NCBI RefSeq assembly: GCF_003334255.1
Contig: NZ_QOWU01000101.1
Origin: Escherichia coli
Lineage (GTDB): Bacteria > Pseudomonadota > Gammaproteobacteria > Enterobacterales > Enterobacteriaceae
Reading direction: 5' to 3' (one strand)
DNA length: 6,464 bases
The position numbers and the translations under genes were made by a program. Positions 1 to 3,826 of this stretch are shown here, in pieces. Under the pieces are notes generated by a model. That model saw nothing but the letters and a program-made list of their open reading frames with translations. It was not told where the DNA came from and did not search any database. The stretch's first letter is position 1. Each line of letters begins with the position of its first letter.

Positions 1-48
1 TGTTCCGCGTGCGCATAGCCGCATTCACCGCATCACAAAATTCACTTT

Positions 49-106
49 AAAAAGGGTGGCAGAGCAGTCACGGAGTAAAACTGATACCGCCAAACGTCAC
101 CAGAAA
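49..106 (-). ncRNA. dicF: DicF small RNA (ftsZ-targeting sRNA of Qin-type prophages), mature 53 nt at 54-106 plus U-tract at 49-53
   Basis: The reverse complement of 54-106 reads TTTCTGGTGACGTTTGGCGGTATCAGTTTTACTCCGTGACTGCTCTGCCACCC, followed by TTTTT (plus-strand A5 at 49-53). This matches the E. coli DicF sequence as I recall it, with about one mismatch; the match is from memory, not from a search. It lies in the expected orientation, co-directional with the repressor-proximal leftward operon. Confidence 0.8.
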
Positions 107-440
107 ATTGATAACAGAGGGCGTTGCAGCGGGGTTGTCACTTAAGCGTATGGTCAACCTGACAACCCGGTGTCCTCAACGGGGAAGGAATAACCCCGCC
201 ATACTTACCGCCGCGCCATTTCGCGGAGTGCCACAACCGGAAGCGCGCGGTCGACGAAAATTTAATGACGACCTATACAGAGAGACTAACTTCGCCGGGC
301 GCTTTCGTGTTATGCCCTGACTTTTCAGGGATATATCCTTTTCAGTAAACTGTCAGTGCCGGATGCTCACCCGTGTCCGGCGCACGCACTCCACCTGACC
401 CGTGGAGAACTCCTTAATTACCAACCCTCAGGAGGGTGAA

Positions 441-524
441 ATGGATAAAAAGCAAATTGAGGCCCTGCAATCTATTATTGAAAAACAAGATGAAGCTATC
501 AGGATTCTTTTCATATCGCACTGA
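441..524 (+). CDS. Candidate 27-aa small protein (MDKKQIEALQSIIEKQDEAIRILFISH), antisense to the leftward early operon; may be the 5' part of a frameshifted gene continuing in another frame to 720
   Basis: One of the strongest translation-initiation contexts in the window: GGAGG at 431-435, 5-nt spacer, ATG at 441. The ORF ends at TGA 522-524. A second protein-like frame starts at ATG 526 and runs to TAG 718-720 (65 aa). Confidence 0.3.
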   Translation: MDKKQIEALQSIIEKQDEAIRILFISH

Positions 525-679
525 TATGATACTAAATATGCTTTCTGCATTAACGGCTGCGCTTGGTGGTACAAATACAAACGTATACCGCGAAGTTGTT
601 ATTCAACAGATAGATAAATTTGAAAAAACCATAGCAGGTATTAATGCTCATCTTGCAGAACAAGAGAAAGACCATGCTC

Positions 680-1093
680 TTATGGCAATTTCTTCAGTAG
701 CTCTCCCGAAAGTTGAGTAGTTTTAATTGTTGTTTTGAAATAATCACTGCTTTCACATTTGAGTGATTTCATGGCAATCCAAATGCGGGCCTCTGTGCCT
801 GCATTTGGTTCCAGTTGCTGTAGACGTTTTGCGTCTTCCAAAAGTAAGGCGATAATGTGTTTCAGCTTCTCATCATTTGCTTGATTCTTGTTTTCAGTCG
901 AATTCTGTCCGCCGAATAGGCGCTTCTCTTCATACAGACCTATAAAGGCACGACGCACGTTACCGGATATAGTATCGATGGTTTCCTTTTCTACAGTACT
1001 CAGGTCAAGAGTCGCCAGTTGAGAGCGAACCACATTAGATGCCATTTCCTGGAATGGTACTGGTAAATCTTTAAATTCCATCGTCAACCTCAT
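680..1093 (-). CDS. Hypothetical 137-aa protein, second gene of the repressor-proximal leftward operon; no family recognised
   Basis: Minus-strand ORF whose ATG (1093-1091) overlaps the TGA of the upstream YdfA-like gene (TGATG), suggesting translational coupling. Alternative start at ATG 1081. The predicted protein is helical and charged. Confidence 0.6.
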   Translation of the reverse strand: MRLTMEFKDLPVPFQEMASNVVRSQLATLDLSTVEKETIDTISGNVRRAFIGLYEEKRLFGGQNSTENKNQANDEKLKHIIALLLEDAKRLQQLEPNAGTEARIWIAMKSLKCESSDYFKTTIKTTQLSGELLKKLP

Positions 1094-1245
1094 CAGTCGG
1101 AGTTTCTTGCTAACCAGCGATGCGCGCCAGCTTCGGTTTTAAACGTTTTACTTTTGGTATACGTCATCGCGGTAAACGTGCCGTCCTGGTTGGGAAACAC
1201 GCCGCATACCAGAGATTCGCTGTTGCCAAGATCGATAGTATCCAT
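1093..1245 (-). CDS. ydfA: YdfA-like small protein (DUF1391 family), 50 aa
   Basis: The internal ATG at 1245 is preceded by GAGGT with a 5-nt spacer. The product MDTIDLGNSESLVCGVFPNQDGTFTAMTYTKSKTFKTEAGAHRWLARNSD matches my recollection of E. coli YdfA, the first gene after dicA in Qin. The 114-aa upstream extension in the ORF track has no SD and starts inside a hairpin. Confidence 0.6.
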   Translation of the reverse strand: MDTIDLGNSESLVCGVFPNQDGTFTAMTYTKSKTFKTEAGAHRWLARNSD

Positions 1246-1430
1246 GTTGACCTCATTTCCCCTTAACGCCGGGGGAGCGGAACAAAAACCTGCTGCGCTG
1301 TTATACAAAGTGTTCCCGCCGTCATGTTCATACGCCTCGGGCTGGCTACTTAACCCCTGACCACTGCCGGGTAACTCGAAGTATTGCCCTGCATTCTGTG
1401 GGGCGGGGTGGGTTGGTATGAAAAGAAGGA

Positions 1431-1467
1431 TACCCATAGGTATTTAAAAAGTAAATACCTATGGGTA
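1431..1467. promoter_or_regulatory. Perfect inverted repeat (15-bp arms, 7-bp spacer) downstream of the repressor gene; candidate OL-type operator overlapping an early-left promoter, possibly also a terminator for the repressor transcript
   Basis: TACCCATAGGTATTT (1431-1445) and AAATACCTATGGGTA (1453-1467) are exact reverse complements. On the minus strand, TTTACC-17 bp-TAAATA fits -35/-10 spacing within and around the repeat. The half-site CCATAGGTA recurs at 1926-1934 at the repressor start. Confidence 0.45.
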
Positions 1468-2788: not shown

Positions 2789-3826
2789 ATGGCTAATGCC
2801 TGGCTCAGATTGTGGCATGACATGCCAAATGATCCCAAATGGCGAACCATTGCCAGGGTCTCAGGACAGCCAATCGCAACAGTGATGGCGGTGTATATCC
2901 ACCTTCTGGTGAGTGCGTCACGAAATGTCACGACATGTCACGGCGTGTCACTACGTGGTCACATTGATGTCACGACGGAAGATTTAGCAAGTGCGCTTGA
3001 TGTGACGGAAGACGTAATTGATTCAATTTTGCATGCAATGCAGGGGCGGGTTCTGGATGGTGACCTTATTTCCGGATGGGAAAAACGTCAGGTGCTGAAA
3101 GAGGACAATGGTAACGTTTCGCAAACGGCAAAATCCCCGGCAGAGCGCAAGAGAGCGCAGCGGGAGCGCGAAAAGCTGCGGAAATATGATGCTGATTGTC
3201 ACGATGAGTCACGACGTGTCACGCATCTGTCACGACAAGTCACGACAGATAAAGATACAGATACAGAATTAAACCCCACACATAACGCGCGCATGCGCGA
3301 GAGTGCTCCAACCGGTGAGTCGCATGGTGCGCCGTTGCAGACAGCCGAACCTGAATACCTGGACGGCCTGAGCGAACCGATCGGGAAATTTTCGATGACT
3401 ACTGTCTGGCAGCCGTCGTCGGATTTTCGACAACGGGCAGCAGTGTGGGGTATGGCTCTGCCTGAGCCGGAATTTACACCTGCTGAGCTTGCCGCATTCC
3501 GGGATTACTGGATGGCGGAGGGGAAGGTTTTCACACAGGTTCAGTGGGAGCAGAAATTTGCCCGCCACGTGCAGCACGTCAGGACACAGGTAAAACCAGT
3601 CAGCAAGGGGGTAAGCCATGCAGCATCAGGTGGCACGGCATCACGGGCAGTTCAGGAAATCCGGGCAGCACGCGAACAGTGGGAACGAGACAACGGATTT
3701 ATCAGCAACGGAAATGGCCTGGAAGCTGTGGGAGCTTATGGGGGAGGTGTATTCGAACCGCTGGACTCAGAAGAACGGGGCCGCACCTTCGAAGCTCTGG
3801 ATTGCCCAGATTGGCACGATGACTGA
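2789..3826 (+). CDS. Phage replication initiator (lambda O-like, iteron-binding replisome organiser)
   Basis: Long ORF immediately upstream of the P-like gene. Two arrays of GTCACG iterons are embedded in its coding sequence, as in lambda O/ori. ATG 2789 is preceded by GAGG; the GTG at 2783 is an alternative start. Confidence 0.8.
   Translation: MANAWLRLWHDMPNDPKWRTIARVSGQPIATVMAVYIHLLVSASRNVTTCHGVSLRGHIDVTTEDLASALDVTEDVIDSILHAMQGRVLDGDLISGWEKRQVLKEDNGNVSQTAKSPAERKRAQREREKLRKYDADCHDESRRVTHLSRQVTTDKDTDTELNPTHNARMRESAPTGESHGAPLQTAEPEYLDGLSEPIGKFSMTTVWQPSSDFRQRAAVWGMALPEPEFTPAELAAFRDYWMAEGKVFTQVQWEQKFARHVQHVRTQVKPVSKGVSHAASGGTASRAVQEIRAAREQWERDNGFISNGNGLEAVGAYGGGVFEPLDSEERGRTFEALDCPDWHDD
2915..2978. 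repeat. Iteron array 1: six direct repeats of (t)GTCACGAc at 10-11 bp spacing
   Basis: GTCAC begins at 2917, 2927, 2937, 2947, 2958 and 2969, i.e. one helical turn apart. Confidence 0.7.
3196..3248. repeat. Iteron array 2: five direct repeats of (t)GTCACGAC at 10-11 bp spacing, followed by an AT-rich segment
   Basis: GTCAC begins at 3198, 3208, 3218, 3229 and 3239. The AT-rich stretch AGATAAAGATACAGATACAGAATTAAA (3247-3273) and the 12-bp palindrome CGCGCATGCGCG (3288-3299) follow. Confidence 0.7.

What the first reader, a model, noticed from the sequence alone, without database searches (positions are those of the whole stretch)
431..720. Strongly SD-led antisense ORF, possibly frameshifted, convergent with and overlapping the 137-aa gene
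GGAGG-5nt-ATG at 431-443 opens a 27-aa helical peptide ending at TGA 522-524. Two bases later ATG 526 opens a second protein-like frame of 65 aa to TAG 718-720, whose last 41 bp overlap the 3' end of the minus-strand 137-aa gene. The pair reads as a single ~93-aa gene split by a +1 frameshift near TCTTTTCATATC (507-518), or as two small proteins. Either way it is transcribed against the dicB-type operon in its AT-rich, likely horizontally acquired part, an arrangement reminiscent of antisense or toxin-antitoxin-like modules.
Basis: seen in the sequence. Interest (0 to 1): 0.55.

Follow-up and report, generated by a model that had tools for sequence, protein, structure and literature searches.

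The report
Frameshifted small prophage gene, sieB-type slot
The two back-to-back ORFs are a broken copy, caused by one extra T, of a real 92-residue prophage gene of unknown function that is one of several interchangeable small genes sitting behind a conserved RNA leader, opposite the DicF/dicB operon, where prophage Rac keeps its exclusion gene sieB.

Summary
GGAGG-5 nt-ATG (431-443) opens 27 codons to TGA 522-524. ATG 526 opens 64 codons to TAG 718-720, overlapping the minus-strand 137-aa gene by 41 bp. The window and four other genomes have one extra T in the run 508-511. The gene is real: dN/dS against the Salmonella orthologue is 0.245, and same-length relatives exist down to 26-33% identity. 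It has no Pfam, defence-system or structural match. It lies antisense in the early-left operon between DUF1391-type genes and DicF, exactly where sieB lies in K-12 Rac. In 117 usable related viral loci (120 fetched) the slot is empty in about half, as in K-12 Qin. Otherwise it holds one of at least seven small ORFs (69-96 aa), each starting 54-60 nt after a conserved leader that folds on the plus strand and sequesters the SD. My best reading is a decayed copy of a lysogeny-expressed accessory gene. Toxin-antitoxin and programmed-frameshift readings are not supported. Expression and function remain untested.

The parts
54..105 (-). DicF sRNA gene. It marks the early-left (dicBF) operon that runs leftward through the whole region.
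   Evidence: Rfam RF00039, 70.1 bits against a gathering score of 48.
322..351 (+). Candidate weak sigma-70 promoter for the plus-strand gene: -35 TTTTCA at 322-327, an 18-nt spacer and -10 TAAACT at 346-351. The predicted start is at about 356-359. This is inferred, not shown.
   Evidence: Relaxed scan, 4+4 matches. The same hexamers occur with a 17-nt spacer in E2348/69, PPompW, STEC1589 and Qin. L130 has an 18-nt spacer with an extended TG. L008 has TGTTATTAT at the same place. The stricter scan finds no plus-strand promoter.
356..434 (+). Conserved structured leader. Helix 1 is 356-366/373-383 (11 bp, three G.U pairs). Helix 2 is 389-394/402-407. The anti-SD CUCCU at 410-414 pairs with AGGAG at 430-434. 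The invariant core is 359-385.
   Evidence: Plus-strand fold z = -4.2 with 0 of 200 shuffles as good, against z = -1.9 for the minus strand. 93.5% of cells are paired, three pairs carry compensatory changes, and the covariation score is 0.066 against 0.031 in shuffles. See the alignments.
431..443 (+). Shine-Dalgarno GGAGG (431-435) and start codon ATG (441-443) of the 92-aa gene.
   Evidence: Sequence. The SD and a start 54-60 nt after the core are conserved in all cargo classes.
441..524 (+). N-terminal fragment ORF. Residues 1-23 are native, followed by FISH and a stop (27 aa).
508..511 (+). T-run carrying one extra T relative to the intact allele (TTTT against TTT). This is the frameshift.
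   Evidence: Alignments. Allele count is 5 against 121 genomes.
526..720 (+). C-terminal fragment ORF of 64 aa, equal to native residues 29-92 and carrying K45N and P65A. RefSeq instead annotates 490-720 (76 aa, WP_225380399.1) in the identical genome.
680..1093 (-). Convergent partner gene of 137 aa (RefSeq start at 1081, 133 aa). It has an 'MEFKDLP' N-domain plus an 'LLEDAKRLQQLEPNAGTEARIW' domain and tail. Its last 41 bp overlap the plus-strand gene.
   Evidence: phrog_1363 at E 1.8e-44. Modular comparison.
441..870 (.). AT-rich swappable cassette: the plus-strand ORF plus the 3' part of the convergent gene. It is bounded on the left by the conserved leader and on the right inside the partner gene.
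   Evidence: Salmonella homology covers window 300-864. PPompW homology stops at 440 and resumes at 931. GC profile. Cargo classes.

Best explanation
Window 441-720 is a frameshift-inactivated copy (one extra T in the run 508-511) of a genuine 92-aa prophage gene (RefSeq WP_000358771.1, phrog_18692). That much is shown. It is also shown that the gene is one of at least seven alternative small ORFs (69-96 aa) occupying a fixed slot in DicF/dicB-type lambdoid prophages. The slot is on the strand opposite the early-left operon, between the DUF1391/'MEFKDLP' early genes and DicF. Each ORF has an SD and starts 54-60 nt after a conserved leader core, and each converges on and overlaps the 3' end of the upstream early gene. 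This is the position and orientation of sieB in K-12 Rac. The rest is inferred. The intact gene would be an accessory ('moron') gene expressed from the repressed prophage, from a weak sigma-70 promoter at about 322-351. Its mRNA would begin with two hairpins and a helix that sequesters the SD, so translation would be gated. When the early-left promoter fires on induction, convergent transcription and the fully complementary dicBF transcript would shut it off, as described for P22 sieB and its sas antisense RNA. The product is a soluble, all-helical protein of about three helices. Its most likely job is in phage-phage conflict, either exclusion or defence for the lysogen or a counter-measure. 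In the window's lineage the gene is dead, or at best split into a 27-aa and a 64-aa piece.
For: Frameshift: one-T indel; intact 92 aa; 5 against 121 genomes; intact protein on at least 1000 contigs, the window's product on 72. Real gene: phrog_18692 92/92 at E 5.9e-63; dN/dS 0.245 at dS 0.74 against Salmonella, and 0.19-0.45 against the distant homologues at saturated dS; same-length relatives at 33-44% identity; a 91-aa class at hhalign probability 96%. Slot: Rac is racR-ydaG-ydaF(DUF1391)-sieB(+)-KilS-kilR, against repressor-DUF1391-p137-ORF(+)-DicF-dicB here. Salmonella keeps the same layout, with a sub-threshold DicF-like RNA. Cassette: of 120 leader-bearing viral loci (117 with enough downstream sequence), 55 are empty as in Qin and the rest hold seven cargo classes plus singletons, the classes all with an SD and a fixed offset. 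GC step. Leader. Promoter-like hexamers conserved over a diverged spacer. Precedents: sas/sieB (PMC12197685) and accessory loci beside the repressor (PMC7067206). Decay: three changes inside the ORF in this lineage, none of them synonymous, and other independent truncations.
Against: There is no direct evidence of a plus-strand transcript or protein. The stricter promoter scan finds no plus-strand promoter, the candidate matches only 4+4 of 12 positions, and the sequence upstream of the core is mosaic in some loci. No intrinsic terminator follows the gene. The leader is equally conserved in empty loci such as K-12 Qin, so part of its conservation may serve the minus-strand dicBF transcript. 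Work on Qin found no additional promoter in the operon, though only the dicBF strand was examined (10.1101/2023.04.14.536235). There is no match to any known defence family (PADLOC), to Pfam, to solved structures or to folds, so the functional class is argued from position only. The protein is absent from 50,697 sequenced phage records. It may therefore be confined to resident, possibly defective, prophages.
Confidence: 0.6

Rival explanations
1. The split gene is still functional. Ribosomes terminating at TGA 522-524 reinitiate at ATG 526-528, one base later, giving a 27-aa N-terminal helix and a 64-aa C-terminal piece that holds the most conserved core (residues 29-60). The two pieces work separately or reassemble.
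For: The stop and start are separated by one base (TGAtATG). ATG 526 is the native Met29. The conserved block YRTDMILNMLSALTAALGGT..NVYREV lies almost wholly in the second piece. The allele persists in five complete genomes from three sources and on 72 contigs.
Against: There is no SD before ATG 526. The break falls inside the long first helix predicted for the intact protein (H3-41). The same lineage has two further non-synonymous changes (K45N and P65A), one of them at a residue invariant among close homologues, and no synonymous change. The gene is independently truncated in other lineages, which looks like decay.
Confidence: 0.15
2. Programmed +1 ribosomal frameshifting. The tRNA-Leu on CUU slips to UUU at CUU-U (505-508... 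run 508-511) to make the full-length protein, as in prfB.
For: The sequence AGG AUU CUU UUC contains the prfB-type slippery CUU U, and an SD-like AGGA lies 2 nt upstream.
Against: The 0-frame codon after CUU is a sense codon (UUC), not a stop or a rare codon, so there is no pause. The shifted allele is a 4% minority (5 of 126) nested among intact alleles that are otherwise 98.6-98.9% identical. All homologues from Salmonella to distant relatives are single ORFs.
Confidence: 0.03
3. Two-gene conflict module. The plus-strand protein and the class-specific C-terminal tail of the convergent early protein are a functional pair. Either the pair is toxin-antitoxin-like, or it is an exclusion factor plus a self-immunity ('escape') domain made early from PL, like P22 SieB and Esc.
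For: Every cargo class has its own partner tail. The 92-aa, 77-aa, 91-aa, 73-aa and 69-aa ORFs each go with a distinct C-terminal sequence behind a shared MEFKDLP N-domain. For the 69-aa class, the tail stays with the cargo while the N-domain changes. The 41-bp overlap is kept in E. coli, Salmonella and a P2-like prophage.
Against: Distant homologues have an unrelated partner (a 214-aa Xre-like protein, L008) or none at all (L009-L011). The LLEDAK domain occurs in phages with other cargo and without the 92-aa gene. The joints fall at different depths in the partner gene, as expected if the tail simply hitch-hikes between recombination anchors. The similarity of the last 13 residues is forced by the antisense of the conserved cargo C-terminus. 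The TA profile hit is far below cut-off.
Confidence: 0.1
4. The plus-strand RNA is the functional product and the peptide is incidental. In this reading the RNA is an antisense regulator that pairs with leaky dicBF transcripts and keeps DicF and DicB low in lysogens.
For: The leader is conserved even where the slot is empty (K-12 Qin) and folds significantly on the plus strand. Any plus-strand RNA is fully complementary to the dicBF precursor, whose maturation depends on RNase III.
Against: Purifying selection acts on the protein frame (dN/dS 0.245). A strong SD at a fixed distance is kept in all cargo classes. Protein-level conservation with constant length holds down to 26-33% identity. The mapped RNase III site of the 190-nt DicF species lies about 110 nt outside the predicted plus-strand transcript (inferred).
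Confidence: 0.1

Closest known systems
sieB of cryptic prophage Rac (also lambda and P22): superinfection exclusion / abortive infection gene
   Same: Same slot and orientation. It is a plus-strand gene convergent with, and overlapping, a DUF1391-family early gene (ydaF), and it lies just upstream, in PL terms, of an sRNA (KilS there, DicF here) and a division inhibitor (kilR there, dicB here). In P22 it is regulated by a cis-antisense RNA, sas (PMC12197685).
   Different: There is no sequence similarity. The protein here is 92 aa and soluble with no hydrophobic segment, whereas Rac sieB is a 162-codon CDS and is described as a membrane protein (my own knowledge). The Rac sieB leader is not homologous to the leader here. 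No exclusion phenotype has been tested.
Prophage accessory ('moron') loci in the immunity / early-left region (rexAB, bstA and others)
   Same: It is a small self-contained gene in a mosaic hotspot next to the repressor. Its base composition differs from the flanks, it alternates with unrelated genes or an empty site, and it is oriented so that it could be expressed when lytic promoters are off (PMC7067206).
   Different: A classic moron has its own clear promoter and terminator. Here the promoter is only a weak prediction and no terminator is seen. The cargo shares a conserved structured leader across unrelated ORFs, which is not a described feature of morons.
phrog_18692 / RefSeq WP_000358771.1 (hypothetical protein, Enterobacteriaceae)
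   Same: The repaired window ORF is 98% identical to it, with two substitutions, and covers the whole profile.
   Different: The window copy carries a +1 T frameshift. RefSeq annotates only a 76-aa remnant, WP_225380399.1.
Type I / type II toxin-antitoxin modules
   Same: Small genes, antisense overlap with a neighbour, an SD-sequestering leader as in several type I toxin mRNAs, and a prophage location.
   Different: The protein is not hydrophobic and is not under 60 aa. No co-directional partner gene exists. The only TA profile hit is 15.9 bits against a cut-off of 50. Homologues occur without the overlapping partner.

Membership tests
phrog_18692 / WP_000358771.1 family | Full-length sequence match to the family profile | tested here: met
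   The intact allele scores 210 bits at E 5.9e-63 over 1-92 of 92. The repaired window ORF differs by K45N and P65A only.
phrog_18692 / WP_000358771.1 family | Uninterrupted reading frame of about 90-93 codons | tested here: not met
   The window has one extra T at 508-511, giving 27-aa and 64-aa ORFs. It is a frameshifted member (pseudogene allele).
SieB superinfection exclusion proteins | Gene antisense to the early-left operon, between DUF1391-type early genes and the kil/sRNA region | tested here: met
   Rac annotation compared with the window layout.
SieB superinfection exclusion proteins | Sequence homology to SieB | tested here: not met
   No SieB family was returned by Pfam, NCBIfam or PHROGs. 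The exhaustive HMM search returns only the small family itself.
SieB superinfection exclusion proteins | Membrane protein of roughly 160-190 aa | tested here: not met
   92 aa, and the maximum 19-residue Kyte-Doolittle mean is 0.93, so there is no transmembrane segment.
SieB superinfection exclusion proteins | Aborts lytic growth of superinfecting phages | not testable with these tools
   Needs plating assays.
Type II toxin-antitoxin (RelB-like antitoxin) | Profile match above the curated cut-off | tested here: not met
   NF048017 scores 15.9 bits against a cut-off of 50.
Type II toxin-antitoxin (RelB-like antitoxin) | Co-directional, adjacent toxin gene in one operon | tested here: not met
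   The only neighbour is convergent (680-1093, minus strand). Downstream on the plus strand there is no further ORF with an SD.
Type I toxin-antitoxin | Small hydrophobic toxin peptide, usually under 60 aa | tested here: not met
   GRAVY is -0.10 and there is no hydrophobic stretch. All cargo classes are soluble.
prfB-type programmed +1 frameshift | Slippery CUU U followed by a slowly decoded or stop codon in the 0 frame | tested here: not met
   CUU UUC: the next 0-frame codon is the sense codon Phe.
prfB-type programmed +1 frameshift | The frameshift is conserved among homologues | tested here: not met
   5 of 126 complete genomes carry it. All other lineages and all distant homologues are single ORFs.
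Prophage moron / accessory locus | Composition differs from the flanks, and the gene is present or absent or replaced at a fixed site among related phages | tested here: met
   GC 0.365-0.405 against 0.55. Empty in 55 of 117 usable loci (120 fetched), with seven alternative cargo classes elsewhere.
Prophage moron / accessory locus | Own promoter and terminator | tested here: inconclusive
   There is only a weak promoter-like site, with hexamers conserved across a diverged spacer. The stricter scan finds none, and no terminator follows the gene.
Prophage moron / accessory locus | Expressed during lysogeny | not testable with these tools
   Needs strand-specific RNA-seq or a reporter. No paper mentions the protein or the leader sequence.

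The most novel reading that the evidence does not exclude
The conserved plus-strand leader, a swappable small ORF and the cargo-specific tail of the convergent early protein together form an unrecognised family of prophage conflict cassettes. In this reading the lysogen makes a small soluble exclusion or defence protein whose translation is gated by an SD-sequestering leader. On induction or infection, the early-left transcript silences it in cis by antisense pairing and supplies a cognate neutralising tail. That would be a compact, diversifying version of the sieB/esc/sas logic, spread over at least seven protein families in E. coli and Salmonella prophages.
Probability: 0.15. Interest if true: 0.7.

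Novelty: new member of a known kind. Interest (0 to 1): 0.35.

Why it matters
For this window the answer is modest. It explains an odd pair of ORFs as a pseudogene allele, and it shows that the RefSeq 76-aa call in these genomes is a remnant that should be marked as frameshifted. The wider context is more useful. A fixed site opposite the DicF/dicB operon, carried by thousands of E. coli prophages, holds a rotating set of small uncharacterised genes behind one conserved, structured leader. That gives a short, well-defined list of candidates (92, 91, 77, 73, 69, 96 and about 94 aa) to test for phage exclusion or counter-defence. It also gives a leader that can be tested as a translational gate. 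Any plus-strand transcription here would bear on how leaky expression of the toxic DicF and DicB products is controlled. Published work has examined that only on the dicBF strand.

Tried and rejected
- Pfam, PADLOC, NCBIfam and a PDB sequence profile gave nothing usable for the 92-aa protein or the other cargo classes.
- AlphaFold2 with a 4-sequence alignment gave a three-helix model at pLDDT 68.5. Foldseek against viral models and the PDB gave no match at E <= 0.001. The top PDB hits were ribosomal protein chains at E about 0.3, a generic three-helix resemblance.
- A second AF2 job with a 9-sequence alignment had not finished and is not used.
- tblastn of the protein against 50,697 phage records found no match.
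- Rfam at E <= 5 over 1-800 found only DicF, so the leader is not a curated RNA family.
- Literature searches for the protein accession and the leader sequence found nothing. The RpoD SELEX paper gave nothing for the plus strand.
- I first thought the leader existed only to serve the cargo. I dropped that because K-12 Qin keeps it at 92.5% identity with an empty slot.
- I considered obligatory pairing between the cargo and the LLEDAK domain. I rejected it because that domain occurs with other cargo and the cargo occurs without it.
- I rejected a programmed frameshift (minority allele, no pause codon).
- My first repair of the frameshift deleted the wrong base; this was corrected.

Full report
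**Observation.**
GGAGG is at 431-435, followed by five bases and ATG at 441-443. Twenty-seven codons (MDKKQIEALQSIIEKQDEAIRILFISH) run to TGA 522-524. The minus-strand 137-aa ORF is 680-1093, so the overlap is 41 bp. The motif TCTTTTCATATC is at 506-517, and the T-run is 508-511.

**Context.**
Rfam places DicF at 54-105 on the minus strand (70.1 bits). The minus strand carries, in order:
- a DicA/cI-type repressor (1510-1929);
- a DUF1391 gene (1093-1245);
- the 137-aa gene;
- 575 nt without a minus-strand gene;
- DicF, with dicB just beyond the left edge of the window (annotation of the 100%-identical genome).

The candidate therefore lies inside the early-left (dicBF) operon, on the other strand.

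**The frameshift.**
E. coli E2348/69 has an annotated, uninterrupted 92-aa CDS at the same place (WP_000358771.1). The DNA alignment shows a single extra T in the window's T-run.
- Of 5,426 complete E. coli genomes, 126 carry the gene. Five have the window's 81-base version and 121 have the 80-base intact version.
The 76-aa product that RefSeq calls in the frameshifted genomes is on 72 contigs.
- Within the ORF, the window's lineage differs from the majority allele by the extra T, K45N and P65A, with no synonymous change.
- Other lineages carry independent truncations and frameshifts.

The window's copy is thus a decaying allele. The stop and the next ATG are one base apart, so reinitiation could still give a 64-aa C-terminal piece. 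I rate that 0.15. A prfB-like programmed +1 shift at CUU-U is very unlikely: there is no pause codon, and the shifted form is a minority allele.

**Is the intact gene real?**
Yes.
- It matches phrog_18692 end to end (E 5.9e-63).
- Salmonella prophages carry a 93-aa orthologue at 72% identity in the same place. dN/dS against it is 0.245 at dS 0.74.
- An exhaustive HMM search of 1.84 billion representatives finds only 15 proteins. They include same-length relatives at 33-44% identity in a P2-like prophage, beside an island integrase, and next to a cI-type repressor.
- A 91-aa class found later is a remote homologue (hhalign probability 96%, E 2e-9).

No function can be read from sequence or fold:
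- There is no Pfam, PADLOC or PDB match, and only sub-threshold NCBIfam hits.
- The AF2 model has three helices at pLDDT 68.5, with no significant Foldseek match.
- The protein is soluble and mildly acidic, with no hydrophobic segment.

**What the slot is.**
K-12 Rac is annotated racR(-), ydaG(-), ydaF/DUF1391(-), sieB(+), KilS sRNA(-), kilR(-). The window is repressor(-), DUF1391(-), p137(-), ORF(+), DicF(-), dicB(-). The plus-strand gene therefore sits where sieB sits, and like sieB it converges on and overlaps the preceding early gene.

K-12 Qin matches window 1-426 at 92.5% but has ydfC directly abutting that point. There the slot is empty, and what I first called a leader is the ydfC-dicF intergenic region. 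PPompW/Stx2 prophages share the window's sequence up to base 440, including the SD, and then encode an unrelated 77-aa protein.

Of the 117 with enough sequence downstream, 55 are empty like Qin. The rest hold an SD-led ORF starting 54-60 nt after the core:

| Cargo class | Loci |
|---|---|
| 91 aa | 15 |
| 92 aa | 14 |
| 77 aa | 12 |
| 73 aa | 8 |
| 69 aa | 4 |
| 96 aa | 3 |
| singletons (two lack an SD and start outside the 54-60 nt window) | 3 |

phiES15 and pAEv1818 have a further class of about 94 aa. All are 'unknown function'. GC falls from 0.55 in the leader to about 0.37-0.40 in the cassette.

**The partner gene.**
Each cargo class is overlapped at its 3' end by a convergent early gene, by 11-41 bp in most classes and about 100-120 bp for the 96-aa class. 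The partner is usually an 'MEFKDLP' N-domain protein (phrog_1363/6937) with a cargo-specific tail. In Salmonella the partner is just the 71-aa C-terminal module of p137.

This could mean functional pairing. I think it does not, for three reasons:
- Distant cargo homologues have an unrelated partner or none.
- The LLEDAK domain occurs with other cargo.
- The joints lie at different depths in the partner gene.

I therefore read the tail as hitch-hiking between two recombination anchors: the leader, and the conserved 5' part of the partner gene. Pairing keeps about 0.1.

**The leader.**
On the plus strand, 300-460 folds at -55.1 kcal/mol, z = -4.2, with 0 of 200 shuffles as good. The minus strand gives z = -1.9. 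The structure has three elements:
- an 11-bp helix (356-366/373-383) with three G.U pairs, which would be A.C mismatches on the other strand;
- a 6-bp helix (389-394/402-407);
- CUCCU (410-414) paired to the SD AGGAG (430-434).

On 16 distinct cargo-bearing leaders, 93.5% of cells pair, against 33-57% when the partners are slid. Three pairs show compensatory changes, including U-A to A-U in the anti-SD helix. The covariation score exceeds all 500 shuffles. Diversity is low, so this is supportive and not conclusive.

Just upstream, -35 TTTTCA and -10 TAAACT recur across a diverged spacer, with a 17-nt spacer in most E. coli and 18 nt here. L008 has TGTTATTAT at the same position. The stricter scan reports no plus-strand promoter and no terminator after the gene.

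Published work on Qin maps DicF maturation. RNase III gives a 190-nt species whose 5' end would fall near window 243, and RNase E gives the 53-nt form. That work finds no further promoter, but it examined only the dicBF strand (10.1101/2023.04.14.536235). The core at 356-434 therefore has no described role on that strand.

**Mechanism (inferred).**
In the intact state the gene would be an accessory gene expressed from the repressed prophage. Its translation would be limited by SD sequestration. It would be switched off when the early-left promoter fires, through convergent transcription and a fully complementary transcript. This is the logic reported for P22 sieB and its sas antisense RNA (PMC12197685). 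Mosaic accessory loci next to the repressor are well known (PMC7067206). The rotating set of unrelated small proteins at one site points to phage-phage conflict. No assay supports that yet.

**Verdict.**
The TA-like reading is not supported. The item is a frameshifted member of an annotated but uncharacterised prophage family, in a sieB-type slot. Interest is moderate (0.35), mainly for the conserved leader and the cassette hotspot around it.

Noticed in passing
window 356-434 (core 359-385); also L002, L003, L004, L008, L013, L016 and 120 viral loci: A highly conserved, structured element lies between DicF and the upstream early genes. It is invariant from E. coli to Salmonella and a P2-like prophage and is kept even where no plus-strand gene follows (K-12 Qin). 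It folds better on the plus strand, is not in Rfam, and no paper prints its sequence.
   Followed up: partly
window 441 to about 870, and the equivalent site in L003, L012-L014, L019-L138: This is a hotspot holding at least seven unrelated small ORFs (69-96 aa), all of unknown function and all starting 54-60 nt after the leader core. About half of the sampled loci are empty.
   Followed up: yes
window 680-1093 (-): The 137-aa protein is modular. Its 'MEFKDLP' N-domain is shared with PPompW p135. Its 'LLEDAKRLQQLEPNAGTEARIW' module stands alone as a 71-aa gene in Salmonella and heads other proteins in phiES15, pAEv1818 and Stx phages.
   Followed up: partly
window 1431-1467 and 1966-2000: The half-site TACCCNNAGGT occurs four times (0.01 expected by chance). 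Two copies form a perfect 16-bp inverted repeat just downstream of the repressor gene, and two lie in the repressor/cro divergent region. These are probably the OL and OR operators of the DicA-type repressor. The scan also flags 1431-1467 as a bidirectional terminator-like hairpin.
   Followed up: partly
window 2917-2976 and 3198-3246 (+): Two clusters of GTCACGAC-type repeats at 10-nt spacing lie inside the DnaT-like replication gene (13 matches against 4.1 expected). They are probably origin iterons embedded in the initiator gene, as in lambda O.
   Followed up: partly
window 502->474 (-): This is the only promoter-like site the strict scan found in 1-1600 (CTGATA-17-AATAAT, 9 of 12). It lies inside the plus-strand gene on the minus strand and points across its start codon and leader towards DicF. 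It could give a sas-like antisense RNA or a PL-independent DicF precursor. One such hit is within chance expectation.
   Followed up: no
window 339 (T-run in the candidate promoter spacer), 308, 332, 366: The window's lineage also has an extra T in the spacer of the candidate promoter (18 nt against 17) and three substitutions in the leader relative to the majority allele. This is consistent with general decay of the locus.
   Followed up: no
L004 5734-5782 (-): Salmonella prophages with the orthologous gene carry a divergent DicF-like RNA below the Rfam gathering score (36.2 bits against 48, E 3.7e-6) next to a ydaE-type gene.
   Followed up: partly
window 1093-1437 (-): The mechanical 114-aa ORF extends the DUF1391 gene far upstream of the annotated 50-aa CDS (1093-1245). 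The extension is GC-rich and probably non-coding leader of the early-left operon.
   Followed up: no
protein clusters: The 92-aa gene shows several other independent truncated or frameshifted alleles in E. coli (70 aa on 42 contigs, 58 aa on 24 contigs, and others). This suggests recurrent loss of function.
   Followed up: partly
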